The translations under genes and the position numbers were made by a program. Source: Escherichia coli (lineage in GTDB: Bacteria; Pseudomonadota; Gammaproteobacteria; Enterobacterales; Enterobacteriaceae). From it: 64,000 bases of DNA. The stretch lies in assembly GCF_003018255.1 (NCBI RefSeq), contig NZ_CP027440.1. One strand, 5' to 3'. Every line of letters begins with the position of its first letter. The first letter of the stretch is position 1. The notes under the pieces were generated by a model, which searched no databases, was not told the DNA's origin, and was given only the letters and a program-made list of their open reading frames with translations. This document shows, one piece after another, positions 25,640-55,699 of the stretch.

Positions 25640-25693
25640 TTTGCTGTCCTGTCAATTGGGTTCTGGCGCGGTATCCCGCGCCGTTCAGATATA

Positions 25694-26209: not shown

Positions 26210-26218
26210 GTTGTCCCC

Positions 26219-28106: not shown

Positions 28107-28127
28107 CCCCCTGAATAAAAACCGGAG

Positions 28128-29680: not shown

Positions 29681-29682
29681 TC

Positions 29683-33609: not shown

Positions 33610-33677
33610 AGGGAAAGGTTGCCATCAGGGGAAGAAAGGCGGCAGTGCTGCAACTTGTATCAGTGCTGATACAAAGA

Positions 33678-35446: not shown

Positions 35447-35447
35447 T

Positions 35448-36156: not shown

Positions 36157-36159
36157 AAT

Positions 36160-36890: not shown

Positions 36891-36922
36891 CCCGTGCCGC
36901 CCGTGCGCGGGGGCACGTTCTG

Positions 36923-37573
36923 TCAGCGGCTGTCATTGCGCAGTCTGCGCTCCAGCTGCTGTTTGTCTTTTTTCACGCCACAGCGGGGAGCGAGCTGTAA
37001 CGCATGGTTGAGATGGTTAAGGGCAGAAGCCGGATTGCTTTCACTCAGGACAGCGCCAATCGCTTTATGCAGACGCGCCCGTGACTGGTCCGGCATATCC
37101 AGACCGTCTGTTAGTTCCAGTGTCTGCAGCAACAGATCGGCATCAAAGCCGGTGGCGGCAAGCATTGCGCTCTGCGCCGCGTCTGCCATTTCCTCTGCCA
37201 GCACGGTCTGCACGTTGCGGTTACCCAGCGGCATCACCCAGCCATGACGCAGGGCATGACGCCCGATCTCCAGCGCCCCGGCATAATCTCCGGCATCAAT
37301 GCGCCACAGCATCACGTACATCAGCACGTCATCCTGTTGAGCGCCTCCGGCAGCCAGAACGCCCTCCGCCCAGGCGGTATATTTCGGCAGCAGCTCCACC
37401 TTGATTTCCGCTTTTTTGACCGTGGACTGAACGCCCTTGAGACGGCGGCGGTCTTCCGCCAGTTGCAGCAGCATCAGGTCATAGCCCGACGCGTGGCAAA
37501 CACTGCCACCCTCGCGAGCGGCCTGTTCAGCCTGAACGCGCAGGCGATGCTGCCGTGCGGGACTCAGGCTCAT
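36923..37573 (-). CDS. M: Terminase small (endonuclease) subunit M
   Basis: Size and order. Confidence 0.8.
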   Translation of the reverse strand: MSLSPARQHRLRVQAEQAAREGGSVCHASGYDLMLLQLAEDRRRLKGVQSTVKKAEIKVELLPKYTAWAEGVLAAGGAQQDDVLMYVMLWRIDAGDYAGALEIGRHALRHGWVMPLGNRNVQTVLAEEMADAAQSAMLAATGFDADLLLQTLELTDGLDMPDQSRARLHKAIGAVLSESNPASALNHLNHALQLAPRCGVKKDKQQLERRLRNDSR

Positions 37574-37576
37574 GAA

Positions 37577-38635: not shown

Positions 38636-38651
38636 CGGGTTTTGTGCTCCA

Positions 38652-39485
38652 TCAGCAATTGGTCAGAGTGTCAGCGGGGGCGTTACCGCCTGTTGCACGC
38701 TGGCGGTAGTCCTGGCGGCTGTCTTCATGACTCAGCTTGTCCACCAGTTCGTTAAAGGCGGTTTGCTGTGCCTGCAGGGCAGTCTCCAGCTCAGACAGGC
38801 GTTCTTCCTGCTCAGACAGGGATTTTTCGGTGCGTGCGTTCAGGTTCTGCTGCTCAGTGGCGACCAGCTCCACGGCCTTATGCACATCAGAGAACCGGGC
38901 GTCATCGGACTGCTCTTTTTTGGTAAACAGCGCCGTGACGCGGGCAAACAGGGACGGTTTGTCGTCCTGGATTTCTTCCAGTTCGATCACCGTTTCCTCT
39001 GCAGCGGTAAAGAGATTGGCAGGATTCTGCTTGCGGTTTGCCAGCGGGTTATGGGCTGCACTGGCGCTGAATGTCAGCATTTCCGTACCCAGACTGGCAG
39101 GGTCATCAGTGGCAGCCAGGCCGACCAGGTAGGCTTTGCCCGTATCAGCGAACTTCGGGCTGACTTCCATAGAGGTGAATAATTTCTGGCCTTTTTTCAC
39201 CAGTTCCACCAGGGACTCCGTTGGCTCAACGTCGGCATACAGCGCCATCTTGCCTGCCAGCGGACCTTCCGTGATTTCTTCAGCAAACAGCGCCGTCACC
39301 TTGCCGTAGCGGTTAAAGATGCTGTCCGGCAGATAAGACTTGATGTGCTCAAGGTTAATCAGCGCGGTATACACCGCCGGGTTGTAGCTGGCTGCCATCT
39401 GTTCCAGCCATTCACGCTGGATTTCGCGTCCGTCGGTGGTGGCACCTTCCACCCCGATGCGAAAACGCTTTGCTTTCACTGTCAT
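38652..39485 (-). CDS. O: Capsid scaffolding protein O
   Basis: Size and order; divergent from P. Confidence 0.85.
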   Translation of the reverse strand: MTVKAKRFRIGVEGATTDGREIQREWLEQMAASYNPAVYTALINLEHIKSYLPDSIFNRYGKVTALFAEEITEGPLAGKMALYADVEPTESLVELVKKGQKLFTSMEVSPKFADTGKAYLVGLAATDDPASLGTEMLTFSASAAHNPLANRKQNPANLFTAAEETVIELEEIQDDKPSLFARVTALFTKKEQSDDARFSDVHKAVELVATEQQNLNARTEKSLSEQEERLSELETALQAQQTAFNELVDKLSHEDSRQDYRQRATGGNAPADTLTNC

Positions 39486-39627
39486 GAGCCGTGCTCCGTT
39501 AGAAAAAACTTACTGGAGCCTTATGGTTGCGGTGATGGGGGCAGTGAAACAATGCGCGGCATTTGTACCGACAACCACACAAACCGCAGGCGGGGAAAGC
39601 CTTCATTCAAGGCTGTAGGTTTGTACC

Positions 39628-41394
39628 ATGAACACCACACTGACACCCGCAGATCTCGATCCCCGTCGGCAGGCCATGCTGCTGTACTTTCAGGGATACC
39701 GCGTAGCCCGCATTGCTGAAATGCTGGGCGAGAAAGTTGCAACCGTTCACAGCTGGAAAAAACGCGACAAGTGGGGTGACTATGGGCCGCTGGATCAGAT
39801 GCAGCTCACCACCGCCGCACGCTACTGCCAGCTCATCATGAAGGAGCACAAAGAAGGGAAAGATTTCAAAGAGATTGACCTGCTGGCGCGCCAGTCTGAG
39901 CGCCACGCGCGGATCGGCAAGTTTAACAATGGCGGCAACGAATCCGACTTAAACCCTAACGTCGCCAACCGCAACAAAGGCCCACGCCGTCAGCCGGAAA
40001 AGAATGTTTTCACCGATGAGCAGATTGAGAAGCTGGAAGAAATCTTCCATTCCTCCATGTTCAACTACCAGCGCCACTGGTGGGAAGCCGGAAAAACCAA
40101 CCGCATCCGCAACCTGCTGAAGTCACGCCAGATCGGCGCGACCTTTTACTTTGCCCGTGAAGCCCTGATTGACGCCCTACTGACCGGACGTAACCAGATT
40201 TTCCTTTCCGCCAGCAAGGCACAGGCCCACGTCTTTAAGCAGTACATCATCGACTTCGCCAAAGAAGTGGAGGTGGAGTTGAAAGGCGATCCGATGGTGC
40301 TTCCTAACGGGGCCACGCTTTACTTCCTCGGCACCAATGCCCGCACGGCCCAGAGTTATCACGGCAACCTGTATCTGGATGAATATTTCTGGATACCGAA
40401 ATTCCAGGAGCTGCGCAAAGTGGCTTCCGGTATGGCTATTCACAAGAAATGGCGACAAACCTATTTTTCCACGCCATCCAGCCTGACACACAGTGCTTAT
40501 CCGTTCTGGTCCGGTGCGCTATTCAACCGTGGGCGCAACAAAGCAGATAAGGTGGACATCGACCTGTCCCACAGCAATCTGGCCCCCGGCCTGCTGTGCG
40601 CAGACGGGCAATACCGCCAGATTGTCACCGTGGAAGATGCAGTGCGCGGCGGATGTAACCTGTTCGACCTCGATCAGTTACGCATGGAGTACAGCCCGGA
40701 CGAATACCAGAACCTGCTGATGTGCGAGTTTGTGGACGATCTCGCGTCTGTGTTCCCACTCAGCGAGCTGCAGGCGTGCATGGTGGACAGCTGGGAAGTC
40801 TGGACCGACTTTCATGCACTGGCACTGCGCCCATTTGGCTGGCGCGAAGTGTGGATCGGTTATGACCCTGCGAAAGGTACGCAGAACGGCGACAGTGCCG
40901 GATGCGTGGTGGTGGCACCGCCAGCCGTGCCGGGCGGCAAGTTCCGCATTCTTGAGCGTCACCAGTGGCGCGGGATGGACTTTCGCGCCCAGGCTGACGC
41001 CATCAAAAAACTGACCGAACAGTACAACGTGACCTATATCGGCATCGACTCAACCGGCGTTGGTCACGGGGTTTATGAGAACGTGAAAGCGTTCTTTCCT
41101 GCCGTCCGGGAGTTTGTCTACAACCCCAACGTTAAAAACGCCCTGGTACTCAAGGCCTACGACATTATCAGCCACCGCCGTCTGGAGTTTGACGCCGGGC
41201 ACACCGACATTGCGCAGTCATTCATGGCAATCCGTCGCGCCACCACCGCCAGTGGCAACCGCCCGACCTATGAAGCCAGCCGCAGCGAAGAAGCCAGCCA
41301 CGCCGATCTGGCCTGGGCAACGATGCACGCACTGTTTAACGAACCGCTGCAGGGCGAATCCGCCAATACCAGCAATATTGTGGAGATTTTTTGA
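39628..41394 (+). CDS. P: Terminase large (ATPase) subunit P (588 aa)
   Basis: Walker A-like motif LLKSRQIGAT and matching size; followed by portal. Confidence 0.9.
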   Translation: MNTTLTPADLDPRRQAMLLYFQGYRVARIAEMLGEKVATVHSWKKRDKWGDYGPLDQMQLTTAARYCQLIMKEHKEGKDFKEIDLLARQSERHARIGKFNNGGNESDLNPNVANRNKGPRRQPEKNVFTDEQIEKLEEIFHSSMFNYQRHWWEAGKTNRIRNLLKSRQIGATFYFAREALIDALLTGRNQIFLSASKAQAHVFKQYIIDFAKEVEVELKGDPMVLPNGATLYFLGTNARTAQSYHGNLYLDEYFWIPKFQELRKVASGMAIHKKWRQTYFSTPSSLTHSAYPFWSGALFNRGRNKADKVDIDLSHSNLAPGLLCADGQYRQIVTVEDAVRGGCNLFDLDQLRMEYSPDEYQNLLMCEFVDDLASVFPLSELQACMVDSWEVWTDFHALALRPFGWREVWIGYDPAKGTQNGDSAGCVVVAPPAVPGGKFRILERHQWRGMDFRAQADAIKKLTEQYNVTYIGIDSTGVGHGVYENVKAFFPAVREFVYNPNVKNALVLKAYDIISHRRLEFDAGHTDIAQSFMAIRRATTASGNRPTYEASRSEEASHADLAWATMHALFNEPLQGESANTSNIVEIF

Positions 41395-42419
41395 TGGGAA
41401 AGAGTAAGAAGAACCGCGCTGCGGCGACGAAACAGATCCAGCTTAAAAGTCAAACTACAGCCGAAGCATTCAGCTTCGGCGATCCCGTTCCTGTTCTGGA
41501 CCGCCGAGAATTACTGGACTATGTGGAATGCGTACAGATGGACCGTTGGTATGAGCCGCCCGTCAGCTTTGACGGACTGGCGCGCACCTTCCGCGCTGCA
41601 GTGCATCACAGTTCCCCGATTGCAGTAAAGTGCAACATTCTGACCAGTACCTACATCCCTCACCCGCTGCTCAGCCAGCAGGCTTTTTCACGTTTTGTGC
41701 AGGACTATCTGGTATTTGGTAACGCCTACCTGGAGAAACGCACGAACCGATTCGGTGAAGTTATCGCCCTTGAGCCTGCGCTGGCAAAATACACCCGACG
41801 CGGGTTAGACCTGGATACCTACTGGTTTGTGCAATACGGCATGACTACACAGCCGTATCAGTTCACGAAAGGCAGCATTTTTCACCTGATGGAACCGGAT
41901 ATCAACCAGGAGATCTACGGCCTGCCCGGTTATCTTTCTGCCATTCCGTCAGCCCTGCTCAACGAGTCCGCCACGCTGTTCCGCCGGAAGTATTACATTA
42001 ACGGTAGTCATGCAGGCTTCATCATGTACATGACCGATGCCGCGCAGAACCAGGAGGATGTGAACAACCTCCGCAATGCGATGAAAAGCGCCAAAGGCCC
42101 TGGCAACTTCCGCAATCTGTTTATGTACTCGCCTAACGGCAAAAAGGACGGACTTCAGATTATCCCGTTGTCAGAAGTCGCAGCGAAGGATGAGTTTCTG
42201 AATATCAAAAATGTTAGTCGCGATGACATGATGGCAGCACACCGCGTGCCGCCACAGATGATGGGGATAATGCCAAATAATGTCGGGGGGTTTGGGGATG
42301 TGGAAAAAGCGAGTTTAGTGTTTGTGAGGAACGAATTAATACCCTTACAGAAAAGGATGCAGGAATTAAATAAATGGCTTGAAGATAATATATTACAATT
42401 CAAACCATATAAATTTTAA
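41391..42419 (+). CDS. Q: Portal protein Q (342 aa)
   Basis: Size and order; 3' end faces cos. Confidence 0.9.
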   Translation: MMGKSKKNRAAATKQIQLKSQTTAEAFSFGDPVPVLDRRELLDYVECVQMDRWYEPPVSFDGLARTFRAAVHHSSPIAVKCNILTSTYIPHPLLSQQAFSRFVQDYLVFGNAYLEKRTNRFGEVIALEPALAKYTRRGLDLDTYWFVQYGMTTQPYQFTKGSIFHLMEPDINQEIYGLPGYLSAIPSALLNESATLFRRKYYINGSHAGFIMYMTDAAQNQEDVNNLRNAMKSAKGPGNFRNLFMYSPNGKKDGLQIIPLSEVAAKDEFLNIKNVSRDDMMAAHRVPPQMMGIMPNNVGGFGDVEKASLVFVRNELIPLQKRMQELNKWLEDNILQFKPYKF

Positions 42420-42460
42420 CGAAAAATCAGCCTTGGCGTTCATAACGTTAGGGCTGTTCA

Positions 42461-44428
<1,968 letters not shown>

Positions 44429-44458
44429 GTATTTTGCCTATTTTAGGTGATAGCGCGC

Positions 44459-44481
44459 GCTCGTATCCCCGCCACGCCTGC
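44459..44481. other. Probable cos site (cohesive-end sequence)
   Basis: The minus strand reads GGCGTGGCGGGGATACGAG, resembling the P2/186 19-nt cohesive end (GGCG(A/T)GGCGGGGAAAGCA...) as I recall it. Confidence 0.5.
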
Positions 44482-44520
44482 CCGCTTTATGTAGTGGTTT
44501 TCATGCACCTGCATGATCTA

Positions 44521-44547
44521 CGCAAAAGCCCGCCAGTTCTGGCGGGC
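44521..44547 (-). terminator. Rho-independent terminator ending the tum/DinI-like operon
   Basis: 9-bp GC stem gcccgccag/ctggcgggc with a 2-nt loop, followed on the minus strand by TTTTG. Confidence 0.75.
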
Positions 44548-44682
44548 CTTAGCAAAAACGATCCTCAAACGATCATGCGATCTCATGCGGCATAGACATG
44601 CACTACAGAGCTAACGCCTCGCAAGGGCTCGTTGTTCAACCTTGCTGACGCCAGAAACAAGTTCAGACGCCAGCAACGTTTC

Positions 44683-44916
44683 TTAATGCAGCCAGCTGTC
44701 GTCTTCCCACACCTTTTGCATAATTTTCATCACTTGCTTCCTTTCTTCGTCCAGTTGCAGTCCTGTCAGTTCCACACCGTTAGAGCTACCTTTACGGATA
44801 CGAATTACCGTTTTGGGATACAGGGGGCGCAGATTGCGGTAAAGCTCGGATTCAAGGGCGTCCAGGGTAGACTGGCTAATCTTCTGCTCTTTATCGATCA
44901 TTATTTCAATGCGCAT
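44683..44916 (-). CDS. DinI-family protein (78 aa), resembling the C-terminal part of a 186 Tum-type SOS antirepressor
   Basis: ORF 44683..44988; start set to MRIEIMIDKEQ..., which parallels the DinI N-terminus (MRIEVTIAK...). Confidence 0.7.
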   Translation of the reverse strand: MRIEIMIDKEQKISQSTLDALESELYRNLRPLYPKTVIRIRKGSSNGVELTGLQLDEERKQVMKIMQKVWEDDSWLH

Positions 44917-44926
44917 AAAAGTCACC

Positions 44927-45115
44927 TCAGCTGATGACATCCATTGAGCGGTTGTATTCGTGGGTTCTGATTTTTGCCATGAGTTCATCTGTCAGTTCAG
45001 AAACCCACTGCAGAGCCAGCCCCTTCTCTTCATCACTACACTCACTAGCCGCTACAAGCTTAAGAAAAAAATCAATGCGCTGGAGCTTCAAAGACTCCAA
45101 AAAATAGTCCTGCAT
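44927..45115 (-). CDS. Small protein (62 aa), first gene of the LexA-boxed operon; possibly the N-terminal part of a Tum-like antirepressor
   Basis: ORF 44927..45217; start set to MQDYFLESL...; stop lies ~10 nt before the DinI-like start. Confidence 0.5.
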   Translation of the reverse strand: MQDYFLESLKLQRIDFFLKLVAASECSDEEKGLALQWVSELTDELMAKIRTHEYNRSMDVIS

Positions 45116-45156
45116 CTTTCCTCCTATGACACCACACGCAATACTGTATGTATAAC

Positions 45157-45176
45157 CACTGTTTATATTTACAGTA
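45157..45176. promoter_or_regulatory. LexA (SOS) box CACTGTTTATATTTACAGTA
   Basis: Perfect CTGT-N8-ACAG with AT-rich spacer, ~40 bp upstream of the small ORF; a second partial TACTGTATGT half-site is adjacent. Confidence 0.75.
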
Positions 45177-45268
45177 TATAATAATCTTACTGATGTAAAA
45201 CGTTTTTTTACATTCATCAGCCTGATATGCCTGGTATTATTAAGAGCACGAATTGTTAACCCGCGTAA

Positions 45269-47710
45269 TTAATACAGGTTCCGCCACTGATCATCTTCCT
45301 GCAAACGCTGGTTCCGATAGAAGATACGCAGGCCTGCTCCTGACGGAATACTGCCTCCGCGAAGGAGTAAATCGACCTCTTTCTCGCTGCCATCAAATCC
45401 TCTGGACTTCAGCTCATACACGAGCTGCAGTCGCTGATGGTCTGTAATTCGCTGTTTGTAGTCTTTACGCCGTTTCGGTTTCACCAGGCGTAACCTTGCA
45501 GCCAGTTCCCGGCGCTCTTTTTTGCTCATACTGTGCAGGTAATCGTGCAACTCCTTGTCATCCATGCGGGTAATGTCCGTTCTGGTATCCCCATCAGCTG
45601 ATTTGTCTTTCCCTTGTTGGTTCAAATTTTCAGCAAGGGGACAGTTATTGCCACGAGTCCAAGGGGCGCAAGCGCCCTGGTCGGCTGCCGCCTCCTGAAC
45701 GTCAACGGCCTTACGAACCATTTTCCACTTCACTGCATGAGTGCAGATCTTGCCCTCTGCAATGGGTGACCAGATGCCATAAATACGAATACCGTGATCA
45801 CCATAGGCGGTCGGCTCTTCGTTGATTTCATAAGCGGTTCTGATCAAGTGATATTTGCGGGGAACCAGTACGCCGCCCTGCTTCATAATGTAGGTGGCAA
45901 AACAGCCAGCATCAGCAGCAGCCAGAATGGCATCAAGGCGCGGGTTATCCAGTACCGACGCACCTGCTTTTTTGTCACCCTGTTGCCTTGCCGCCTGACC
46001 AGCCAGCAATCGCAGTTCACGGTAAGCCTGACGCCCCGGAATGCCAAAGAAGCGGAATTGCTGAACACGATGCAGAGACGCCCAGGCATTAACGTATTCA
46101 GCATTATCACGCAGGGATTTACCCGTTTCCTTGCTGATCTCGCCAGCCAGACCACGCCCGTCAATGTTCTTACTGATGTATTTCGCGATGTAGCTTGTTG
46201 GCGTACCTTTGCGCGGGTTTATCAGCTCAGACTTAAAGCGTGGCCCCGTGTTATTACCCAGCTCCTCGCGGTCTTCACGAATGGCAAACTTACGCAGCAA
46301 AGCAGTAATGGCGCGGCGATCTTTTTTGCGCATGAAACACAACAGGTGCCAGTGAACTGTGCCGTCATGATGCGGCTCAGCCACCCGCACGCCATACCAG
46401 CGCAACCCGGTTTTGTGCATAGCCTTACGAAATGCAGCAAACATGCCGACCAGATAATCGCTGCTTTGTCTTACCGTCGCGTTTGTCCAGGTCGGGTTTG
46501 GTCTGCCGTTATTGAGCGTGGAATGGAAACGCGACGGACAGGTGATGGTGTAGAAAACGGCACAGTCACTGCGCATTTCCGCGATAAGCTCCAGACCTTT
46601 AACACAGGCCATCATCTCATTGCGGCGATGCGCCGGGTTGCTGCTGCTGGCCTTTACCACATCTTCCATATCCAGCGTGTCGCCGTTTTCGTTCACCAGT
46701 TCATGAGAACGGAAAAACTCCAGCGACTTACGGCGCTGCTCACGTTTATGCATCACGGCTTCATAGCTGACATAGGGAGATGCTTTTTTGCTGACCAGGC
46801 AGACAGCACGCAACTGCTCTTCCCGCCATTCGCAGCGCATCTTCCATAATTTCCGATACCACCAGTCGGCACACAACATACGCGCCAGCGAACCCGGAAT
46901 GAGTTCATAGGGCACGGGTTTGCGACGCTTTCTTTTCCGACGAAGTTGCTCAAACGCAGGCGGGATAACATCCAGTCGCAGGGTTTCCGCTGCCACCTTT
47001 TCCCATGTCTTGCGGATTTCTTCTGGCTTAACATCATCGGTGGCGTACAAATCACCACAAGCGGCATCAAGGCACATGCTCATATGCGCAGCTACCAGGG
47101 TGGACAGGCGTTTCACCTGATCCTGACTCATTTCAGGCAGGATCAGCAGGCCGTCCAGCCCTTCATGGCTCGCCATAAAGCGAAAAGAAGTGGATAGCTG
47201 ACTGTCGCGTACATGCTCCAGCCGTTCCAGACATGGCTTAATCGTCTCACGCAAATAGCGAGAATAAGCCTTTGGCCTGCCCAGGCTGCTGAAGTATTCA
47301 ATACGTTGCATCAGCGGCTTGCTGATATGGGAAGGCTGGGCGTTAACGTCCGCCAGAATGACCATGTCCGGATTAAAACGCTGCTGCTCATGCGCCAGCT
47401 TTGCCCGGCTAATGAGCTTATCCTGCTCCATTTCGCGTTGGACAGGATCACGGGATTCATTAAAGAAATAACGCTCCCAGACCTGATCACTCAGTGCCTC
47501 GCGGCGCAGTTGTTCCTGCTCGTTATCGGCAGCGTACAGAGTGATCAGGTTTGAAAGCGCAGAAACCGGCGCAACTTCCGCCGGGTCCAGATAAGGGTTA
47601 ATGGCTTTCTTAGGTAAATTCCACGAATAACCCCCGGCAGAATTCTCAATGCTACCGGAAGTTACACTGACAAATGGATCGGCAAGACGGCCTGTGCTGA
47701 TCTCTGTCAC
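45269..47710 (-). CDS. A: Replication initiation protein (P2 gpA / 186 RepA family rolling-circle initiator, 813 aa)
   Basis: Size, position and paired catalytic tyrosines (...YIAKYISKN...). Confidence 0.88.
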
Positions 47711-48717
47711 TCACAGACTCCTGCATATACACTGCTGCACACCGCTTTATCATTCATGCCTGCCAGCAGGTCAAACTGCATACCGCCCCGAGTTGTTAAG
47801 GCCCAGTCCCGATAAGTTTCAATGCCATAAGCATCAACAGTTATGACTTCGATCCGTTTTTCATCACGGCGCGGATCATGCGTGGATGGAAAGAACGTTG
47901 AATTGCCACGTCTTGAACATTCCGCAACCAGTCTTTCCCACTCAGCCACTCGGCGGATTTCTTCTGGCCAGCGTTGGAAAATCTCAGCAAGTTCTGACTT
48001 GCGAGCATGAATACATGGCATACAACCGACACGACTGCATCCCTGCATATAAAGGGGGTTAGGCTTAATGCCATGACGTTTGGCAATAGCAAACACATCC
48101 TCATGCAGCCAATTAAGGATCGGACGATAAACATGCAGGCCCAGAGTATTGTCTGCATCGTCCTCCCACTCAGGCAACAATGCACGTTCCGGTGATTCCT
48201 GCCCCCGGACTCCTTGCCAGCTGATTACCTCATCGTATTCATCCAGAGCCGGATCGATTACCTGTGTACGTATTGGTTCATGTTTTAGTTCAAAAGTGCA
48301 GAAACGAGCTTTTGTTGAAGGGAAGCGACCTTTCCACATGCACAAATCAAGAAACGGAACGCCGGTTGGTTTAAGGATTTCCAGTGCCCGGTAAATACGT
48401 TCCTCAGCCTCATCTGTCGACATACCACATTCCTCAACGAGAGAAATGGGCCACTTTTCCGCAATGAATTTACGTTTCCCTTCTATCTGGCGTGTGAAAT
48501 CCGCTTTGACGCGAATAATCTTGCCCAGCTTTGATTCCAGATAATCCAGATATTCTATTGTCTGTGGATGTTCATGACCCGTATCGGCAAATACAGAAAT
48601 ATGCGGAACATCGTTTTCAATGGCTCTTAACCATTGAGCGAGACTATCTTTGCCACCAGAAGTAGTGATGATGTTAATGGTGCTTGAAGCAAAGCAACGC
48701 GGATCGATAGCATTCAT
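47707..48717 (-). CDS. PP-loop ATP pyrophosphatase, PAPS-reductase-like (336 aa)
   Basis: PP-loop motif TTSGGKDS near the N-terminus; Cys-rich C-terminal part; translationally coupled to dam upstream and A downstream. Confidence 0.75.
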
Positions 48718-49562
48718 GCGCGTACCTCAACGGTACGGTCAGAGCCGCTGGCAAAATCGACACCAAACCACCCAGCTGATTTGGTGGCAATGATTTCTGT
48801 TGCAGATTTACTCTCGCCAGCTGACACGCCAATGCTGCGTTTTGACTTGATGTAGTGGTGAGTGAAATTGCGATACAGCGAACGGATCAGGGATGTGTCA
48901 CTGTTAGAAACAATGACCGGATGACCTTCAGATGATCGATGTTCAAGAACGGATGCCAGGTGATACTGGTCATCTTCAGTGAAGCCATCAGTGTGATAGC
49001 CGGAAAACGTACCGTCATAAGGCGGATCGCAATATACCACATCCCCCACCTTCAACATCGCCAGCGTTTCATCAAAGCTGGCGCAGATAAACGTTGCCCG
49101 CTGGGCTTTCTCTGCAAATGCGCGAATTTCTTTTTCAGGGAAATACGGATTTTTATAATTACCGTAGGGAATGTTGAAATACCCGCTCTTGTTATAGCGA
49201 CATAGCCCACGGTAACCATGACGATTGAGATACAGAAAATATACCGCTTTCATGAAATCAGTAATTTCAGTGGAGTAATTAAACTCCTGCCTTATGTTGT
49301 AATAAGCCACCTCTCTGTTTGCTTCCTCAAATAAAGCTCTGGCACGAGATATAAACGCCTCACAATCAGCAGCAACCTTTTTATAGAGGTTGATTAAATC
49401 AGGATTAATATCCGCAACCAGATAGCTGGGGTAATCCGTCTCCATCATCACAGCACAAGAACCCGCGAAAGGTTCAACCAGTCGCGGGCCAGCAGGAAGG
49501 TATTTTTTCAGTTCGGACATAATGGCGGTTTTATTACCCGCCCATTTCAGGATGGTGCTCAT
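48714..49562 (-). CDS. dam: DNA adenine methyltransferase (Dam-type, D12 class)
   Basis: [11 protein letters not shown]-binding start and DPPY catalytic motif; start set to [11 protein letters not shown]. Confidence 0.9.
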
Positions 49563-49861
49563 ACAGCACCTCCTGCAATAACATATCCTAAAGCTTCTAA
49601 TGGGGTTAATGAGCGAATTGATAGCATCACCCATTGTTCTGAAACTGCCATGACGTCATTAACCGGAAGCACATGAGAGATAACCGCGGCCCATTCCCTA
49701 CCCGTAAATACGCCATGCTTCCATTCGCAAAGAGAAAGAACATCACCAACTTTATAGCCACGATCGTCTTTACGAAGTTCAGCCGTCTTTTGACCTGCAA
49801 CCACAGCGTTGAAATACTTAGGTGCAATTTTTAATTGATGGATACGCACAGCCCCTGTCAT
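49559..49861 (-). CDS. ASCH-like small protein (~100 aa)
   Basis: ORF 49559..49921 with start set to [11 protein letters not shown]...; fold assignment is from memory of similar phage proteins only. Confidence 0.5.
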
Positions 49862-50085
49862 ACAGCACCTCCGTTGTAATGTTTGCCTTTCAGCTCTGCG
49901 ATTTCCTGACAGGTAATGCAAAGCTGCACTCCTGGAATGGCGCGGCGGCGTGCTGGCGGAATTGGCGCTTCACATTCAATGCAAAGCACGCGAGACACGC
50001 CCGGTGTTTTGGCACGGGCAGCACGGATATGGCGCTGGCGTTCTTCTTCAACGCGCTGCTGTACGAGATCCATTGCATCAGCCAT
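49858..50085 (-). CDS. TraR/DksA-family C4 zinc-finger protein (75 aa)
   Basis: [26 protein letters not shown] four-cysteine motif. Confidence 0.7.
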
Positions 50086-50324
50086 TAGTGGATCTCCTGC
50101 GCTTCGTTCTGGATTGCTTCAGCGGTCACACGCAGCAGTTCTGCCGCTTCGACGTGGTTTAGCTGGCGGGATGTGATATGACACGCAAGACTATCAAGGC
50201 GGGCAGCCATTGCTTCAGCCCTTGCCCGGCGTTCTTCCAGACGAGCCTCTGTCAGTAAAATATTAAGCCCTGCGTCATCCGGTCCGGTTTTAGTCGTGAG
50301 GGTTTCAATATTACGCATAATCAA
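50085..50324 (-). CDS. Hypothetical early-region protein (79 aa)
   Basis: ORF in the operon frame with no recognisable motif. Confidence 0.5.
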   Translation of the reverse strand: MIMRNIETLTTKTGPDDAGLNILLTEARLEERRARAEAMAARLDSLACHITSRQLNHVEAAELLRVTAEAIQNEAQEIH

Positions 50325-50385
50325 TTCTCCTGAATTTAGATAAAGGGATGCCCGGCGGGTTTACGCCATTAATTTCATTAGCTGG

Positions 50386-50727
50386 TTAATTCGGCATGGT
50401 TAGCCGTCTGGGAAATAAGCTCACCACTGCACGAAAATGATTCATTGCTTTAATCAACTCCCGCTTTTCGTCAGTGGTCAGCTCATTAATGCTGATGCTA
50501 TGACGTTCAGCTGGAATTTTTGCCATAAAGAATATGGCAGCCAGTGCCCGTTTATTTTGTTCGCTATTGATATCCCGTGGATCACGCATATCTTTAATAA
50601 ACCGCTCAAGCTCTGACTCAATATTCAGGCCAAAAACTTTCGCCCTTAACTCCGCAATGTGATTAAGTCCATTCAGGCGTTCACCGGGGCTTAATGGAAC
50701 AGTCGCCGCAGCGCCATTAATTGCCAT
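50386..50727 (-). CDS. Hypothetical early-region protein (113 aa)
   Basis: ORF in the operon with no recognisable motif. Confidence 0.5.
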   Translation of the reverse strand: MAINGAAATVPLSPGERLNGLNHIAELRAKVFGLNIESELERFIKDMRDPRDINSEQNKRALAAIFFMAKIPAERHSISINELTTDEKRELIKAMNHFRAVVSLFPRRLTMPN

Positions 50728-50749
50728 AATTCATATCCCCAAAACGCAA

Positions 50750-50974
50750 CTATCGTTCTTTGTTCTTACGGTAACGTTCAAGAGGAGATACATTTTTTCG
50801 TATCGTCTCTTTAACCTGCTCTCCCCGTAAAAACGTCCCATCCTTTAGCGTGAAAAAGTAACTGCCATCGCCCGACAACGACGGATAACAACAGAGCAAA
50901 TCATCTTCAGGTACTGAATAACTCTCCCCTCTGTAACGAAACTGATAAACCACTTCACTTTCCGCTGCATACAT
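50750..50974 (-). CDS. Hypothetical early-region protein (74 aa)
   Basis: Good RBS GGAGAAAG 7 nt upstream of the ATG. Confidence 0.55.
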   Translation of the reverse strand: MYAAESEVVYQFRYRGESYSVPEDDLLCCYPSLSGDGSYFFTLKDGTFLRGEQVKETIRKNVSPLERYRKNKER

Positions 50975-51141
50975 TTTGACTTTCTCCGTTTCCCCGTGGT
51001 CAATTCAGACAGCAATTCATCTTGTGAACGGCACGGATGCCAGCGTTTACCATCCTTACCCATGATCCAGCCGTGACCGTAGTGCATTGCCGGGCTTTGT
51101 TTTACCAGCAGCGATGCAAATGATGGTTCTTTCGTCAGCAT
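50845..51141 (-). CDS. Hypothetical protein directly after cII (MLTKEPSFASLL...); 3' part overlaps the next ORF out of frame
   Basis: ORF 50845..51171 trimmed to the Met that follows the cII stop; the C-terminal third looks non-native. Confidence 0.35.
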   Translation of the reverse strand: MLTKEPSFASLLVKQSPAMHYGHGWIMGKDGKRWHPCRSQDELLSELTTGKRRKSKCMQRKVKWFISFVTEGRVIQYLKMICSVVIRRCRAMAVTFSR

Positions 51142-51148
51142 AAGCACC

Positions 51149-51658
51149 TCACAGCAAACCGAATGAAGCACCGAGGCCAGTCACGGTATCAACTGCACTC
51201 GCCATCGCAGGATTAGCCTGTAAACGGGCCTGCAATGAAACAGCCGCCAGCGCCATCAGTCGTGTTACAGAGTTAATGCTGCTGATAGCATCACGACGAC
51301 CTGCACTGGTTTTTACATCGCCAGATACCGCACCTGCCGCGACACGTCCTATCTCTGCAGTTGCACTCATGACGTAATGCGGCAGTTTCTCTTTTGCTAC
51401 CTCATTAATCGGTACACATGGCAGGCAGTGAATCTGTGCCAGAAAACCATCTACCAGCGTTGAATCTTCAGTCAGATCGGTAAGCAACCAAATTTCTGGT
51501 GCGGTTAATAAATGAGGTTGAGCTGGGTTCAGTTTGTTCCGCAGAATCTGCACATTCATGCCTGCACGTTCTGCCAGTTGCACCAGATTGTGGCGCAGTG
51601 CGAATGCACGACAGGCTTCATCAAAATGTGGATGTTTGGAAACTTGGTAATCAAACAT
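51149..51658 (-). CDS. cII: CII-like transcriptional activator (phage 186 CII family)
   Basis: Close resemblance to 186 CII as I recall it ([10 protein letters not shown]...[26 protein letters not shown]...). Confidence 0.8.
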
Positions 51659-51722
51659 GGTTTTCAACTCCGAACTTATCGCAAAATCGAACTCAGCGTC
51701 TTATTGCGAAAATAGACGTCTA

Positions 51723-51926
51723 TTAAGCAGACAAAGCATCAACAGTCAGAGCAGCCAGGTTAATCATTACCTTTTCACGTTTTTTGTCTTTACGAAGACG
51801 ATGACGAGGTAGTCGGCCATCAGCCAACATGTCGTTAATCGTATCAATAGAAAGGCCAGTCAGTTCGCTATAACGTTCGATTGTGACATGTGGTGTATTC
51901 AGAGTAATTGAAATGTTAGGTGTCAT
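51723..51926 (-). CDS. apl: Apl/Cox-like excisionase and transcriptional regulator (67 aa)
   Basis: Small HTH protein, first gene of the lytic operon, divergent from cI. Confidence 0.65.
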
Positions 51927-52071
51927 AAGGCAACATTCCTTCTAGATATGGCTTGTGGCGAGCCGTTGTTTGTCGTGATTAGTAGTGAAGGCTCCAAAAG
52001 AACACTTCTGGTTCAACTTTAAGATCTCTTTTGGAATCTGTCAACGAATTTTGGATTTCTTTGGAGGACTT
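51927..52071. promoter_or_regulatory. Lysis-lysogeny switch region between apl and cI (pR/pL and operators expected here)
   Basis: Position only, by analogy with 186; no operator sites were resolved. Confidence 0.4.
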
Positions 52072-52641
52072 GTGGATTTCAATAGCGGCGGTAAGAAAGC
52101 CATAGAACGTTTAGTTGAAGCATATGGGTTCGGTACCCGTCAGGCTCTCTGTGATCATTTAGGTGTTTCTAAGAGCACCATGGCAACGCGCTATATGCGT
52201 GATATTTTTCCAGCAGATTGGGTAATCCAGTGCGCCCTTGAAACGGGCACCTCGCTTAATTGGCTAACAACAGGGCATGGTTCAAAGCAAGCATCAGCAA
52301 ATACAAATACTATGGAAGTTGCTAAATATGTATTATCTGATGGGGCCTTGTGTGAAGACGGTTTTTATATTTTCGATAGGGAATTTCTACCGTCGGCATT
52401 CAAGAATATTTTTGCAATCACAGATAATAATTCTGAATTTGTTTGTGATAAGGAATTTGATGATATACGTGATGGTAAATGGGTAATAAGTATTGATGGC
52501 GAAATAACGATCCGTGACATTACTCGTTTACCCGGTGGAAGAATCTTCGTCGAGGGTGGAAACAGAGCCTTCGAATGCAAGATAGAAGACATTGAAATAA
52601 TTGGTAAAATTATAAGTTTAACAGTCAAGTATGTTAAATAG
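52072..52641 (+). CDS. cI: CI-type immunity repressor (186 CI-like, ~189 aa)
   Basis: ORF 51985..52641; start reassigned to a GTG preceded by GGAGGA; HTH region [29 protein letters not shown]. Confidence 0.75.
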
Positions 52642-52657
52642 TACCGGGAGGAAAACT

Positions 52658-52849
52658 ATGCTTGGTAAGGTATTTTTTGTGGTTTTGTCATGTTCTTTGT
52701 TATTAAACCCACTAACTACCTATGCTAGAAATTATCCCTGTTCAGGGAAAAAGGGAGGTGTTTCTCACTGTACCTCAGATGGCAAATTTGTTTGCAATGA
52801 TGGAACTATTAGTAAATCCAAAAAAATCTGTACTAAAAACTCACGATAA
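52658..52849 (+). CDS. Small secreted cysteine-containing protein (63 aa precursor), cargo between cI and int
   Basis: RBS GGGAGGAAAA; signal peptide [23 protein letters not shown] with an AxA-like cleavage site; mature part has 4 Cys. Confidence 0.5.
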
Positions 52850-53037
52850 CTTTTGCTTTTATATCTGCGCCTAAAATAAAAATGAGCCGCAGGTTAACCG
52901 CAAAAATTACATGCTCACATAGCAAAAAGAATAGCCAACTTAATTATGGCTTCAGTGAGATGTATGGTCGTAGGATTTCATACATTGACACTGGTTATAC
53001 ATACAGTGAAAATGCTCTCTACTGGAGGGCATTTTTT

Positions 53038-54081
53038 ATGGCAGTACGAAAACTAACCACAGGGAAATGGCTTTGCGAATGTTACCCCGCCGGACGCAGC
53101 GGGCGTCGCGTGCGTAAACAGTTCGCTACCAAAGGCGAAGCATTAGCTTTTGAGCGTCACACGATGGAGGAGGCAGAAGCTAAGCCTTGGCTTGGTGAAT
53201 CGGTAGACCGTCGAACTCTACAGGATATCGTTGAACTCTGGTTCAAACTGCACGGCAAATCCCTGACCGCTGGCGAGCATGTTTACGACAAGTTGATACT
53301 GATGGTCGATGCTCTCGGAAATCCCCTCGCCACCGATCTAACATCCAAAATGTTCGCGCACTATCGCGATAAGCGCCTGACGGGTGAAATCTACTTCAGC
53401 GAAAAATGGAAGAAAGGAGCCAGCCCGGTAACTATCAATCTGGAGCAAAGCTATCTGAGTGGGGTCTTTAGCGAGTTAGCCCGACTCGGTGAATGGACAG
53501 CACCAAATCCACTGGAGAACATGCGTAAATTCACCATTGCCGAAAAAGAAATGGCCTGGCTGACACATGAACAAATCACAGAGCTTCTGTTCGACTGTCA
53601 ACGCCAAAGCCCCCTGCTCGCTCTTGTCGTCAAAATCTGCTTGAGCACCGGAGCACGTTGGCGCGAAGCTGTGAACCTGACACGTTCTCAGGTCACGAAA
53701 TACCGAATCACATTTGTCAGAACTAAGGGCAAAAAAAACCGCAGCATTCCGATCAGCAAAGAGCTGTATGAGGAAATTGTTGCCCTAGACGGCTTCAAAT
53801 TATTTACTGACTGCTACTTCCAGTTTTTAGCCGTGATGGATAGAACCTCGATCGTACTACCACGCGGGCAACTTACCCACGTTCTACGCCATACGTTCGC
53901 AGCACATTTTATGATGTCCGGCGGGAACATTCTTGCTTTGCAAAAAATCCTGGGCCACCACGATATAAAAATGACTATGCGCTATGCACATCTTGCCCCT
54001 GATCACCTTGAAACAGCACTGCGTTTCAATCCATTAGCCACACTTTCCACTAAAGCAACGAACCTTGAAGCAAACAGCTAA
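53038..54081 (+). CDS. int: Tyrosine integrase (P2/186 family)
   Basis: ORF 52882..54081 trimmed to MAVRKLTTGKWLCECYPAG...; C-terminal catalytic region HVLRHTFAAHF...MRYAHL. Confidence 0.9.
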   Translation: MAVRKLTTGKWLCECYPAGRSGRRVRKQFATKGEALAFERHTMEEAEAKPWLGESVDRRTLQDIVELWFKLHGKSLTAGEHVYDKLILMVDALGNPLATDLTSKMFAHYRDKRLTGEIYFSEKWKKGASPVTINLEQSYLSGVFSELARLGEWTAPNPLENMRKFTIAEKEMAWLTHEQITELLFDCQRQSPLLALVVKICLSTGARWREAVNLTRSQVTKYRITFVRTKGKKNRSIPISKELYEEIVALDGFKLFTDCYFQFLAVMDRTSIVLPRGQLTHVLRHTFAAHFMMSGGNILALQKILGHHDIKMTMRYAHLAPDHLETALRFNPLATLSTKATNLEANS

Positions 54082-54121
54082 CACGTTAAAATAGCGCACC
54101 TTCCCTTAATAGAGTAAAGCT

Positions 54122-54607
54122 ATGTCCGGCATTGCGGATTTTTTTTCAGTTGTGGCTGCAGTTGGGGCAGTTGTAATCATCCCTGCTGCATATCAACCTA
54201 TTTATCAATCATCTAAAACAAAAAACTATGAGTCTTTGGTAAAAGTTGATTGGGGCAATGAAGGTGACATCTCTACTTCTTATCCACATTTCATACATAT
54301 ACAGTTAGAGAAAGCAGAAGGTGATTGGACTTTTTCAGGAGAACTCATCTGCACAATTAATCCCGAAGAAAAGTTCGTCATTCAGGGTAAACTGAGATGT
54401 CTTAGGACTATAGATGCTGTAATACATCGTACTATTGGCTGGCGGGCTATTGAGATTGGAAAGGCTAAAATCAAGTATGACCGCCGCACAAATCAGTGTC
54501 GATTTATCCCACAAAAGGTTGCTCAGAAGAAACTTGAGACTGATTGCGAACGTGCAATCTTCAGCACCAGCCTCCCTTTATGGGGAAATGACAAATCTCC
54601 GGTATAA
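54122..54607 (+). CDS. Hypothetical protein (161 aa) with an N-terminal hydrophobic segment, cargo between int and attR
   Basis: ORF ends 1 nt before the att core; no recognisable motif. Confidence 0.5.
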   Translation: MSGIADFFSVVAAVGAVVIIPAAYQPIYQSSKTKNYESLVKVDWGNEGDISTSYPHFIHIQLEKAEGDWTFSGELICTINPEEKFVIQGKLRCLRTIDAVIHRTIGWRAIEIGKAKIKYDRRTNQCRFIPQKVAQKKLETDCERAIFSTSLPLWGNDKSPV

Positions 54608-54608
54608 G

Positions 54609-54630
54609 TGGCGACAAAGTGGCGGCAGCG
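54609..54630. repeat. Prophage attachment-site core, right copy (tggcgacaaagtggcggcagcg)
   Basis: Direct repeat of 20223..20244 with one mismatch. Confidence 0.7.
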
Positions 54631-54721
54631 GTTGGCATTGTCCCGTAATCGCCACTCCTTATCACTAACCTAACTTATTGATTGTCTTGCAACTCATTGT
54701 TATTTCTAACCCATTTACATA

Positions 54722-55699
54722 AATGGCAATAAAGTTGAGCTATACGGCAAGATGGTTGGTGAGCGAATTCTGACCGACCGTGAAAATGGTGAAAAAGGCG
54801 ATAATTCTCAAGATACCTCTTATGCCCGTGTAGGCGTGAAAGGTGAAACTCAGATCAACCCTGAACTGACTGGTTACGGTCAGTTTGAACTAGACCTGGA
54901 AGCATCAAACAGACACAACCCTGACCAAACTCGTTTGGCATATGCTGGTTTGAGTTACAAAGATTTTGGTTCATTCGACTACGGTCGTAATGTCGGTGTC
55001 GCGTATGATGCAGAAGCATTTACTGATATGTTTGTTGAGTGGGGCGGTGACTCATGGGCTGGTACTGACCTGTTCATGACCAACCGTACCAACGGTGTTG
55101 CAACCTATCGTAACACAGATTTCTTTGGCATGGTTGAAGGTCTAAATTTTGCTCTGCAATATCAGGGTAAAAATGAAGGTACAGGCAACTACAAAGCAAA
55201 TGGCGATGGCCATGGTTTATCTGCAACTTACACTATTGACGGTTTCTCATTTGCTGGTGCTTATGCAAACTCTGACCGTACTGATTGGCAGTCTGGTGAT
55301 GGTAAAGGCGAAAGAGCCGAAGTTTGGGCGTTGTCAACAAAATATGACGCTAACAATGTCTATGCTGCTGTGATGTACGGTGAATCTCACAACATGAATT
55401 CCGACGACGGTGATGTTGTGAACAAAACACAAAACTTCGAAGCTGTTCTGCAATATCAGTTCGACTTTGGTCTGCGTCCATCCATCGGTTACTCCTATTC
55501 TAAAGCACTGGACGTAGCAGGTTACAAAGATTCTGATCGTCTGAACTATATTGAAATCGGTACCTGGTATTACTTCAATAAGAATATGAACGTATATACC
55601 GCTTATCAGATCAACCTGCTTGATAAGAGTGATTATGTTCTCGCTCATGGACTGAACACCGACGACCAACTGGCAGTTGGTATCGTCTACCAGTTCTAA
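54722..55699 (+). pseudogene. yedS: 3' part of porin gene yedS (OmpC/OmpF family), resuming at NGNKVELYGK...
   Basis: Porin beta-barrel signatures, ending in the canonical ...GIVYQF. Confidence 0.8.

What the first reader, a model, noticed from the sequence alone, without database searches (positions are those of the whole stretch)
52658..52849. Small secreted cysteine-containing peptide gene between cI and int
A 63-codon ORF with a strong RBS and a textbook signal peptide (cleavage after TYA) gives a ~40-aa mature peptide with four cysteines. It lies in the lysogenically expressed cI-int transcription unit. Small secreted or envelope-targeted peptides in this position are candidates for exclusion, signalling or toxin-like roles.
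Basis: inference. Interest (0 to 1): 0.4.

Follow-up and report, generated by a model that had tools for sequence, protein, structure and literature searches.

The report
Prophage copy of periplasmic mini-protein YdcA
The small gene after the phage repressor is real and encodes an exported, disulfide-knotted 40-residue protein of the already catalogued but functionally unknown YdcA family, which many 186-like prophages carry at this same spot.

Summary
Window 52658-52849 (+) is a 63-codon gene with a GGGAGG ribosome-binding site, a Sec-type signal peptide and a 40-residue basic mature peptide with four cysteines.

It is not new. RefSeq annotates the identical protein as "YdcA family protein". 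It passes the curated NCBIfam model NF007463 and matches PHROG 6000 and Pfam PF27300.

It is a phage-borne paralogue of the E. coli core gene ydcA. Selection acts on the protein: 11 of 12 differences from the BL21 prophage copy are synonymous.

About 12% of complete E. coli genomes carry this phage-type copy. The cI-ydcA-(cargo)-int order recurs in Escherichia, Klebsiella, Hafnia and Yersinia prophages and in Haemophilus phage HP2, where the gene is unannotated.

Function is unknown, but there are two new leads:
- The domain is fused to three unrelated secreted nuclease families.
- Its only solved relative is Dis2, an outer-membrane-complex subunit of the Legionella Dot/Icm secretion system.

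Most likely it is a non-enzymatic periplasmic binding module expressed in the lysogen. An exclusion role at DNA entry is plausible but untested. Toxin or signalling roles are unlikely.

The parts
52072..52641 (+). cI immunity repressor (RefSeq start; a longer GTG-initiated ORF begins at 51985)
   Evidence: Pfam Phage_CI_repr at 3.1e-31 and Phage_CI_C at 2.5e-26. RefSeq annotates WP_024196798.1 at the equivalent position.
52646..52651 (+). Shine-Dalgarno GGGAGG, 6 nt upstream of the ATG
   Evidence: Read directly from the sequence.
52658..52849 (+). ydcA-like gene: 63 codons plus TAA
   Evidence: ORF confirmed. NCBIfam NF007463 scores 115.8 bits, above the cutoff of 93. PHROG 6000 matches. RefSeq names it WP_000900883.1, 'YdcA family protein'. 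dN/dS is about 0.02.
52658..52726 (+). Sec-type signal peptide, residues 1-23, with predicted cleavage after TYA
   Evidence: It has the n/h/c-region layout. Across homologues Ala at -1 is nearly invariant. Leader pN is 0.5-0.6 while mature-region pN is 0.03-0.12.
52727..52846 (+). Mature 40-residue peptide with the YdcA core [29 protein letters not shown] and four invariant cysteines
   Evidence: Alignments A1 to A3. AlphaFold2 core pLDDT is 85-91. Dis2 is the only PDB relative.
52985..53013 (+). Promoter-like site TTGACA-17-GAAAAT in the ydcA-int spacer, with an ACTG..CAGT inverted repeat between the hexamers
   Evidence: Found by the consensus scan. Conserved upstream of int in five prophage lineages whatever the upstream gene. 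Function not shown.
53008..53036 (+). 13-bp hairpin followed by U6 directly before the int ATG; its 3' arm contains the int Shine-Dalgarno GGAGGG
   Evidence: Free energy -14.5 kcal/mol, z-score -5.2. The stem is kept through compensatory changes in other lineages. A terminator or translational-control role is inferred, not shown.
53038..54081 (+). Tyrosine integrase
   Evidence: Pfam Int_N at 6.3e-32 and Phage_integrase at 4.3e-21.
54122..54607 (+). 161-residue ORF between int and the prophage end; positional analogue of 186 orf69
   Evidence: RefSeq lists it as a hypothetical protein. No hit in Pfam, PHROGs, NCBIfam or PADLOC. 186 orf69 occupies the same position.
20158..54722 (.). The whole 186-like prophage (34.6 kb) that carries the gene
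   Evidence: Junctions were mapped by BLAST against the uninterrupted E. coli Nissle locus.

Best explanation
Identity (confidence about 0.9). The ORF is a translated accessory gene of a 186-like prophage and encodes a member of the YdcA family (PF27300 / NF007463).

How it most likely works:
- Inferred: it is transcribed with cI from the lysogenic promoter, since it starts 16 nt after the cI stop and has its own strong Shine-Dalgarno sequence.
- Inferred from sequence: it is exported by Sec and cleaved after Ala23.
- Inferred from the solved Dis2 relative: the four cysteines form two disulfides in the periplasm, giving a small, very basic knot.
- It has no catalytic features, so it most likely acts as a stoichiometric binding module at the periplasmic face of the envelope.

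My committed mechanism (about 0.3 for this specific step): it binds a polyanion, most likely DNA, close to the outer membrane. In the lysogen it thereby hinders foreign DNA crossing the envelope, such as the genome of a superinfecting phage. That would be a superinfection-exclusion type of lysogenic conversion.
For: Family membership:
- NCBIfam NF007463 above cutoff, PHROG 6000, PF27300 on all homologues, and the RefSeq name.

Protein-level selection:
- dN/dS is about 0.02 against the BL21 prophage copy.
- The mature region stays at pN 0.03-0.12 while synonymous sites are saturated and the leader is at pN 0.5-0.6.

Placement in the lysogenic operon:
- The gene follows cI on the same strand within 2-49 nt in Escherichia, Klebsiella, Hafnia and Yersinia prophages.
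- In Haemophilus phage HP2 its start overlaps the cI stop (ATGTAATG).
- The 186 record annotates pL as driving cI-int-orf69.

Defence-type neighbourhood:
- In some lineages the same cI-int interval also holds a KAP NTPase that matches the PADLOC defence candidate PDC-S20 at 1.3e-171.
- A 2026 preprint lists the int-to-primase interval as a minor defence hotspot of P2-like phages (10.64898/2026.02.27.708500).

Binding-module reading:
- The domain sits directly after a signal peptide and in front of three unrelated nuclease folds: Endonuclease_NS (three proteins), SNase (one) and PLD-like (one). These are most of the recognisable fusions among 149 family representatives.
- On one Rhizobium plasmid a thermonuclease gene lies 26 nt upstream of a YdcA homologue.
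- In HP2 the next gene encodes a secreted protein that hits PF12869 (tRNA_anti-like), an OB-fold family from memory.
- The conserved core is basic, with mean net charge +3.3 and near-invariant Lys residues.
- Dis2 shows that the fold is a disulfide-pinned periplasmic unit located near the outer membrane.
Against: - No expression, localisation or phenotype data exist for the prophage gene.
- PADLOC has no model that matches it.
- In the only solved case, Dis2, the domain contacts lipoproteins (DotC, DotD, DotK), not DNA, and the Dis2 lobes are not basic.
- The core-genome paralogue ydcA points to a housekeeping or stress role. Its deletion sensitises E. coli W to 300 mM 3-hydroxypropionate, and a sigma-S promoter peak lies upstream.
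- The thermonuclease adjacency was seen in only 1 of 4 alpha/beta-proteobacterial plasmid loci examined.
- The Dis2 homology is moderate: hhalign gives 47% probability at E = 2e-4, and Foldseek rmsd is about 4 Å.
- A hairpin with a U-run before int means co-transcription with int is not assured.
Confidence: 0.3

Rival explanations
1. Envelope or stress-fitness factor. The phage copy simply adds dosage of what chromosomal YdcA does, which would be some contribution to periplasm or outer-membrane robustness under acid, organic-acid or stationary-phase stress. It would benefit the lysogen without any role against other phages.
For: - Chromosomal ydcA is present in 5411 of 5426 complete E. coli genomes.
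- A ydcA deletion is sensitive to 300 mM 3-hydroxypropionate, and the same paper reports induction at pH 5 under YdcI (PMC7642389).
- A sigma-S constitutive promoter peak lies between rydC and ydcA (PMC5493296).
- The gene is kept intact in decayed prophages where the replication gene and cII are pseudogenes (BL21) or where the replication-gene region has been deleted (L009).
Against: - Every E. coli host already has ydcA, so the gain from a second copy is unclear.
- The phage and chromosomal copies are only about 75% identical in DNA, and only over the mature domain.
- Recurrent co-location with defence-type cargo and the nuclease fusions are not explained by this reading.
Confidence: 0.28
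2. Dis2-like docking protein. The knot binds outer-membrane lipoproteins or a trans-envelope machine (secretin, pilus, T4SS, T6SS, or a porin or receptor complex) from the periplasmic side. It would alter that machine's activity, for example by masking or disabling a route that other phages or conjugative plasmids use.
For: - Dis2 (Lpg0823) is the only PDB relative. Foldseek gives probability 0.89-0.97, 38-39% identity and TM-score 0.59-0.64 for the mature model. HMM searches give E = 9e-5 and 2e-4. A Dis2-like protein carries PF27300.
- Dis2 sits on the Dot/Icm outer-membrane cap and contacts DotC, DotD and DotK.
- One family member is fused to a T6SS VasL domain.
Against: - Dis2 has two lobes and five disulfides, and it is dispensable for T4SS structure and nearly so for function.
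- No T4SS or T6SS genes lie near the prophage gene.
- The nuclease fusions fit this reading only if the domain serves as an anchor.
- No partner protein in E. coli is known.
Confidence: 0.2
3. Exported toxin, bacteriocin or signalling peptide acting on other cells.
For: It is small, cationic, cysteine-rich and exported.
Against: - The Sec leader takes it only as far as the periplasm.
- There is no double-glycine leader, and no dedicated exporter, immunity gene or receptor-kinase gene in any of the loci examined.
- A close paralogue is a core gene of E. coli.
- The domain occurs as an internal module of larger secreted enzymes.
Confidence: 0.05
4. Not a gene: the stretch is a cI 3' UTR or an int regulatory region that happens to contain an open frame.
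For: None found. The Rfam search of 51600-54800 found no RNA family either.
Against: - Eleven of the 12 substitutions against BL21 are synonymous in this frame only.
- The mature-domain protein sequence is conserved across genera while synonymous sites are saturated.
- A curated HMM matches above its cutoff.
- The conserved int regulatory module lies downstream of the ORF, at 52985-53036.
Confidence: 0.01

Closest known systems
E. coli K-12 YdcA (b1419; 57 aa; NCBIfam PRK10040 group; Pfam PF27300)
   Same: It shares the architecture of a signal peptide followed by a 35-40-residue core, PCSG-KGG-SHC...[14 protein letters not shown], with four cysteines. The literature predicts it to be periplasmic. 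Its function is unknown.
   Different: - The window copy is phage-borne and follows cI. The K-12 gene lies between cybB/rydC and hokB.
- The window copy belongs to sub-model NF007463 rather than NF007462, the model for the K-12 type, against which it scores 68.5 bits with a cutoff of 118.
- The leaders are unrelated, and DNA identity is about 75% over the mature part only.
[quoted passage not shown]
   Same: It is the only solved structure with this fold and motif (C-x-K-x-GG-[IV]-x-x-C...G-x-[LV]-VCN-[DN]-G-x-x-S). It is a disulfide-pinned periplasmic unit near the outer membrane, with an N-terminal hydrophobic segment that aligns with the YdcA signal peptide.
   Different: - Dis2 has two lobes, ten cysteines and five disulfides, and is a stoichiometric part of a T4SS.
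- The window protein has a single lobe and four cysteines, and no T4SS is nearby.
- The literature treats Dis2 as Legionella-specific and without homologues. The link to YdcA is my inference, at moderate statistical support.
Prophage superinfection-exclusion and lysogenic-conversion genes placed beside the repressor (lambda rexAB in the cI operon; envelope-located blockers such as T4 Imm/Sp, HK97 gp15, phi80 Cor, T5 Llp; named from general knowledge)
   Same: It is a small envelope-targeted product encoded next to the immunity repressor, so it is expected to be made in the lysogen. The same interval carries defence-type cargo in related prophages.
   Different: There is no sequence relationship to any of them and no PADLOC hit. 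It is not a lipoprotein or a membrane protein. No exclusion phenotype has been measured.
Phage 186 lysogenic operon (pL-cI-int-orf69-terminator)
   Same: It has the same switch layout: apl/cII/fil leftward, cI rightward, then int, and then a small ORF before the attachment site.
   Different: - In 186 the int start abuts the cI stop, with nothing between them.
- Here ydcA plus a 188-bp spacer is inserted, and the spacer holds a conserved promoter-like site and hairpin.
- No sequenced Escherichia, Salmonella, Klebsiella or Yersinia phage in the phage collection carries the gene.

Membership tests
YdcA family (NCBIfam NF007463 / Pfam PF27300 / PHROG 6000) | Scores above the curated cutoff of the family HMM | tested here: met
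   NF007463 scores 115.8 bits against a cutoff of 93, covering 58 of 58 profile positions. PHROG 6000 matches at 1.9e-34. PF27300 is precomputed on the identical cluster.
YdcA family (NCBIfam NF007463 / Pfam PF27300 / PHROG 6000) | N-terminal Sec signal peptide followed directly by the core domain | tested here: met
   Read from the sequence and from the alignment. Ala at -1 is conserved in at least 90% of sequences and the leader varies freely. No dedicated signal-peptide predictor was available.
YdcA family (NCBIfam NF007463 / Pfam PF27300 / PHROG 6000) | Core motif PCSG-x-KGG-[IV]-x-x-C...F-[VIL]-C-x-[DN]-G-x-x-S-x-S-x-x-x-C with four invariant cysteines | tested here: met
   All motif positions are present. 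The logo was built from 157 domains, and invariant columns are listed for A1 to A3.
Dis2-like T4SS outer-membrane-cap subunits | Sequence and fold similarity to a Dis2 lobe | tested here: met
   Foldseek gives probability 0.89-0.97, 38-39% identity and TM-score 0.59-0.64 normalised to the query. hmmsearch gives E = 9.3e-5 and phmmer E = 2.2e-4. hhalign gives only 47% probability, against an N-terminally truncated Dis2-like sequence. One Dis2 lobe was among the 90 sequences used for the second model.
Dis2-like T4SS outer-membrane-cap subunits | Two tandem lobes pinned by five disulfides | tested here: not met
   The mature peptide has a single lobe and four cysteines. Tandem forms do exist elsewhere in the YdcA family.
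Dis2-like T4SS outer-membrane-cap subunits | Encoded in a genome with, and assembled into, a Dot/Icm-type T4SS | tested here: not met
   The gene lies in a P2/186-like prophage of E. coli, with no T4SS genes in the locus. Assembly into a machine cannot be tested with these tools.
Prophage superinfection-exclusion / anti-phage defence genes | Homology to a known or candidate defence protein | tested here: not met
   The peptide has no PADLOC hit. The neighbouring KAP NTPase in related prophages matches PDC-S20.
Prophage superinfection-exclusion / anti-phage defence genes | Expressed in the lysogen and reduces infection by other phages | not testable with these tools
   Only position supports expression: the gene starts 16 nt after cI and the synteny is conserved. 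No phenotype data exist.
Bacterial lipoprotein-type exclusion factors (Llp/Cor type) | Lipobox with an invariant Cys at +1 of the mature protein | tested here: not met
   C12 follows V-L-S at only position 12, with K4 inside the required uncharged stretch, and it is not conserved in homologues.
Class II bacteriocin / microcin-type secreted peptides | Double-glycine or dedicated leader, plus adjacent exporter and immunity genes | tested here: not met
   The leader is Sec-type. The neighbours are cI, int, a KAP NTPase or unknown ORFs in all loci examined.

The most novel reading that the evidence does not exclude
The YdcA knot may be a previously unrecognised periplasmic DNA- or polyanion-binding module. 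It would be shared by a core E. coli y-gene, by secreted nucleases of three folds, and by the Legionella T4SS subunit Dis2. Temperate phages of Enterobacterales, Haemophilus, Moraxella and Acinetobacter would deploy the free-standing form from the repressor operon to intercept DNA entering the cell envelope, whether from superinfecting phage, conjugation or natural transformation.
Probability: 0.15. Interest if true: 0.6.

Novelty: already known. Interest (0 to 1): 0.3.

Why it matters
Taken on its own the gene is ordinary: an annotated small protein of unknown function. It matters modestly for three reasons.

- It is one of the most common accessory genes of 186-like prophages, present in about 12% of complete E. 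coli genomes. It is held next to the repressor across at least five genera, which argues that it pays its way in the lysogen.
- Two links give first handles on a family that includes a conserved E. coli orphan gene: the fusions to secreted nucleases, and the similarity to Dis2, which the literature describes as Legionella-specific and without homologues.
- The experiments are cheap. BL21 already carries the gene, so public RNA-seq, ribosome-profiling and proteomics data could show expression without new wet work.

Tried and rejected
- The local Pfam copy (2025) has no YdcA model, so the peptide gave only a sub-threshold chance hit. PF27300 appears only in the precomputed annotations.
- The 'ydcA' of the gonococcal genetic island could not be connected to this family from the text read. 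The 'ydcA' of plasmid pS88 is a putative DNA methylase, an unrelated gene with the same name.
- The UniRef name 'Conjugal transfer protein' for the exact protein could not be traced to any conjugation locus. The plasmid hits are Acinetobacter and Rhizobium accessory regions and misfiled chromosomes.
- A search from a Dis2 fragment returned only two truncated Legionella-type proteins, so the profile-profile test was weak.
- I looked for a constant operon partner. The downstream genes differ between lineages: none, a KAP NTPase, a 143-residue ORF, the HP2 orf1(S) OB-fold protein, a Moraxella 232-residue ORF, and DUF4236. No conserved partner emerged.
- Thermonuclease adjacency was seen in only one of four rhizobial or Variovorax plasmid loci.
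- Rfam found no RNA family in 51600-54800.
- The lipoprotein reading of C12 was rejected.

Full report
**1. The observation**

The sequence shows an ATG at 52658 and a TAA at 52847-52849, giving 63 codons. GGGAGG lies at 52646-52651, six bases before the ATG. The cI stop codon ends only 16 bases upstream.

The product is [23 protein letters not shown]|[40 protein letters not shown]. It has a lysine-bearing n-region, a 12-residue hydrophobic core and a T-Y-A cleavage motif. The mature part has 40 residues, four cysteines, pI 9.7 and net charge +7.

cI carries Phage_CI_repr and Phage_CI_C. The tyrosine integrase starts at 53038. Apl/Cox-like and CII genes lie on the other strand.

**2. It is a real, protein-coding gene**

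The BL21 prophage copy differs at 12 of 192 bases. Eleven of these are synonymous third-position changes (dN 0.007, dS 0.31). The two other frames show no such bias.

Among copies from Escherichia, Klebsiella, Hafnia, Yersinia and Haemophilus, synonymous sites are saturated (pS 0.7-0.9). Yet the mature region keeps pN at 0.03-0.12 among the enterobacterial copies. The leader runs at pN 0.5-0.6. This is the signature of an exported protein with a constrained mature domain. Rfam finds no RNA family here.

**3. What it is**

- The protein passes the curated NCBIfam equivalog NF007463 (PRK10040.1-2) at 115.8 bits against a cutoff of 93.
- It matches PHROG 6000 at 1.9e-34.
- All homologues carry Pfam PF27300, "YdcA".
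- RefSeq annotates the identical protein as WP_000900883.1, "YdcA family protein".
- The exact sequence occurs on at least 1000 contigs.

The window is E. coli. The prophage spans 20158-54722 and is inserted 82-86 bp into a porin gene next to hchA/hprS.

A DNA search of 5426 complete E. coli genomes finds the phage-type full-length copy in 627. It finds the chromosomal ydcA in essentially all of them, at about 75% identity over the mature domain only. So the finding is a phage-borne paralogue of a core gene.

Published knowledge of YdcA is thin:
- It has 57 residues, a signal sequence, a predicted periplasmic location and unknown function.
- Its deletion sensitises E. coli W to 300 mM 3-hydroxypropionate, and the same paper says it is induced at pH 5 under YdcI.
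- A sigma-S promoter peak lies upstream.
- It is up about tenfold in a pnp mutant.

**4. Context**

In phage 186 itself the int start abuts the cI stop. The annotated lysogenic operon is pL-cI-int-orf69-terminator. Here ydcA and a 188-bp spacer are inserted between cI and int.

The same placement recurs widely:
- Escherichia and Klebsiella: cI-ydcA-KAP NTPase-int.
- Hafnia: cI-143-residue ORF-ydcA-int, with 2-nt gaps.
- Yersinia: cI-ydcA-int.
- Haemophilus phage HP2 (and S2, which tblastn matches at the same coordinates): a 60-codon homologue whose ATG overlaps the cI stop, followed by the secreted orf1(S) and then int. This gene is not annotated in the records.

The KAP NTPase is the PADLOC defence candidate PDC-S20. 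A 2026 preprint counts the int-to-primase interval as a minor defence hotspot of P2-like phages.

No sequenced enterobacterial phage in the phage collection carries the gene, although 142 records match the region, mostly over int. Homologues also sit as morons in Moraxella and Acinetobacter phages and on Acinetobacter and Rhizobium plasmids.

One nuance concerns the transcription unit. The 95 bp before int are conserved whatever gene lies upstream. They contain TTGACA-17-GAAAAT and a 13-bp hairpin (-14.5 kcal/mol, z -5.2). The hairpin's 3' arm is the int Shine-Dalgarno sequence, and it is followed by U6-AUG, with compensatory changes between lineages. ydcA may therefore be the last gene of the cI transcript, with int under separate control.

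**5. Leads to function**

An exhaustive profile search finds 460 clusters at 50% identity, so the family is modest in size. Many members are 60-100 residues; some are tandem repeats.

Among 149 representatives, the recognisable fused domains are mostly nucleases of three unrelated folds, always C-terminal to a signal peptide and the YdcA domain:
- Endonuclease_NS in three proteins.
- SNase in one.
- PLD-like in one.

The remaining fusions are two DUF4124, one T6SS VasL, one TerY_C and two weak PBCV_basic_adap matches.

On one Rhizobium plasmid a thermonuclease gene lies 26 nt upstream of a YdcA homologue, although three similar loci lack it. HP2 orf1(S) hits PF12869 (tRNA_anti-like), an OB-fold family from memory. 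The core is consistently basic, with near-invariant lysines.

**6. Mechanism**

- Shown: the gene, its family, purifying selection and the conserved placement.
- Inferred: co-transcription with cI, Sec export, cleavage after A23 and two disulfides.
- Best guess: a non-enzymatic periplasmic binding knot.

The nuclease fusions, the basic surface and the defence-type neighbourhood favour a DNA or polyanion ligand and an exclusion-type effect at DNA entry (about 0.3). The Dis2 precedent favours docking to outer-membrane lipoproteins or machines (about 0.2). The phenotypes of the core paralogue favour an envelope or stress-fitness role (about 0.28). Toxin or signalling roles are unlikely (about 0.05), and a non-gene is excluded.

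**7. Verdict**

The gene is already known as a family member of unknown function. Interest is low to moderate, and it rests on the recurrent repressor-linked placement and on the two new leads, the nuclease fusions and the Dis2 similarity.

Noticed in passing
window 20158-54722, with junctions near 20157 and 54723: The 34.6-kb 186-like prophage is inserted 82-86 bp into a porin gene next to hchA/hprS. The first ~85 bp, encoding the signal peptide, lie at about 20073-20157. The rest lies at 54723-55699, so the porin is disrupted in this strain.
   Followed up: partly
window 52985-53036: A conserved module lies directly upstream of int in five prophage lineages, whatever the upstream gene. It consists of TTGACA-17-GAAAAT with an internal ACTG..CAGT inverted repeat, then a 13-bp hairpin (-14.5 kcal/mol, z -5.2). 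The hairpin's 3' arm is the int Shine-Dalgarno sequence, and it is followed by U6-AUG. Compensatory changes occur between lineages. It looks like a terminator or translational control of int.
   Followed up: partly
window 54122-54607 (+): A 161-residue ORF with an N-terminal hydrophobic segment lies between int and the prophage end. It has no hit in Pfam, PHROGs, NCBIfam or PADLOC. It occupies the position of orf69 in the phage 186 lysogenic operon, a spot where P2-like phages sometimes carry defence genes.
   Followed up: partly
[not shown]
   Followed up: yes
L002 3112-3876: HP2 orf1(S), the gene after the YdcA homologue, has a signal peptide and matches Pfam PF12869 (tRNA_anti-like, an OB-fold family from memory) at 2.8e-13.
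   Followed up: no
L007, L008 and L011 5198-6529: In Escherichia and Klebsiella 186-like prophages, a 443-residue KAP P-loop NTPase sits between ydcA and int. It matches the PADLOC defence candidate PDC-S20 at 1.3e-171, with weaker similarity to PifA and QatA.
   Followed up: partly
P0108, P0172, P0180, P0195, P0203; L027 3417-4285: YdcA domains are fused behind a signal peptide to SNase, Endonuclease_NS and PLD-like nucleases. On Rhizobium plasmid NZ_CP087976 a thermonuclease gene lies 26 nt upstream of a two-domain YdcA homologue.
   Followed up: partly
P0056, P0058, P0060, P0062, P0113, P0136, P0206; L027-L030: Alpha- and beta-proteobacterial members carry a second small C-terminal cysteine-rich basic domain, CxCRSGxxCxGP[RK]GGx[YF]C...SGxKSY[LI][RK][RK]. 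Pfam picks it up only weakly, as PBCV_basic_adap.
   Followed up: no
PDB 7MUC/7MUD chain AN (Dis2, Lpg0823): The N-terminal hydrophobic segment of Dis2 was discussed in the literature as a possible transmembrane helix. It aligns with the YdcA signal peptide and ends in AFA|ADG just before the first modelled residue, G40. It is therefore probably a cleaved signal peptide.
   Followed up: partly
window 51900-54700 compared with L005 (BL21): The identity pattern is mosaic. cI is 88% identical, ydcA 94% and the ydcA-int spacer 93%, but int is only 77% and the post-int region is unrelated. The cI-ydcA-spacer block and int therefore have different histories. BL21's prophage has pseudogenised replication and cII genes but keeps cI, ydcA and int intact.
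   Followed up: partly
cluster of the exact 63-residue protein: UniRef names this protein 'Conjugal transfer protein' (for example A0A2V2I184_ECOLX). No conjugation locus was found that would justify the name.
   Followed up: partly
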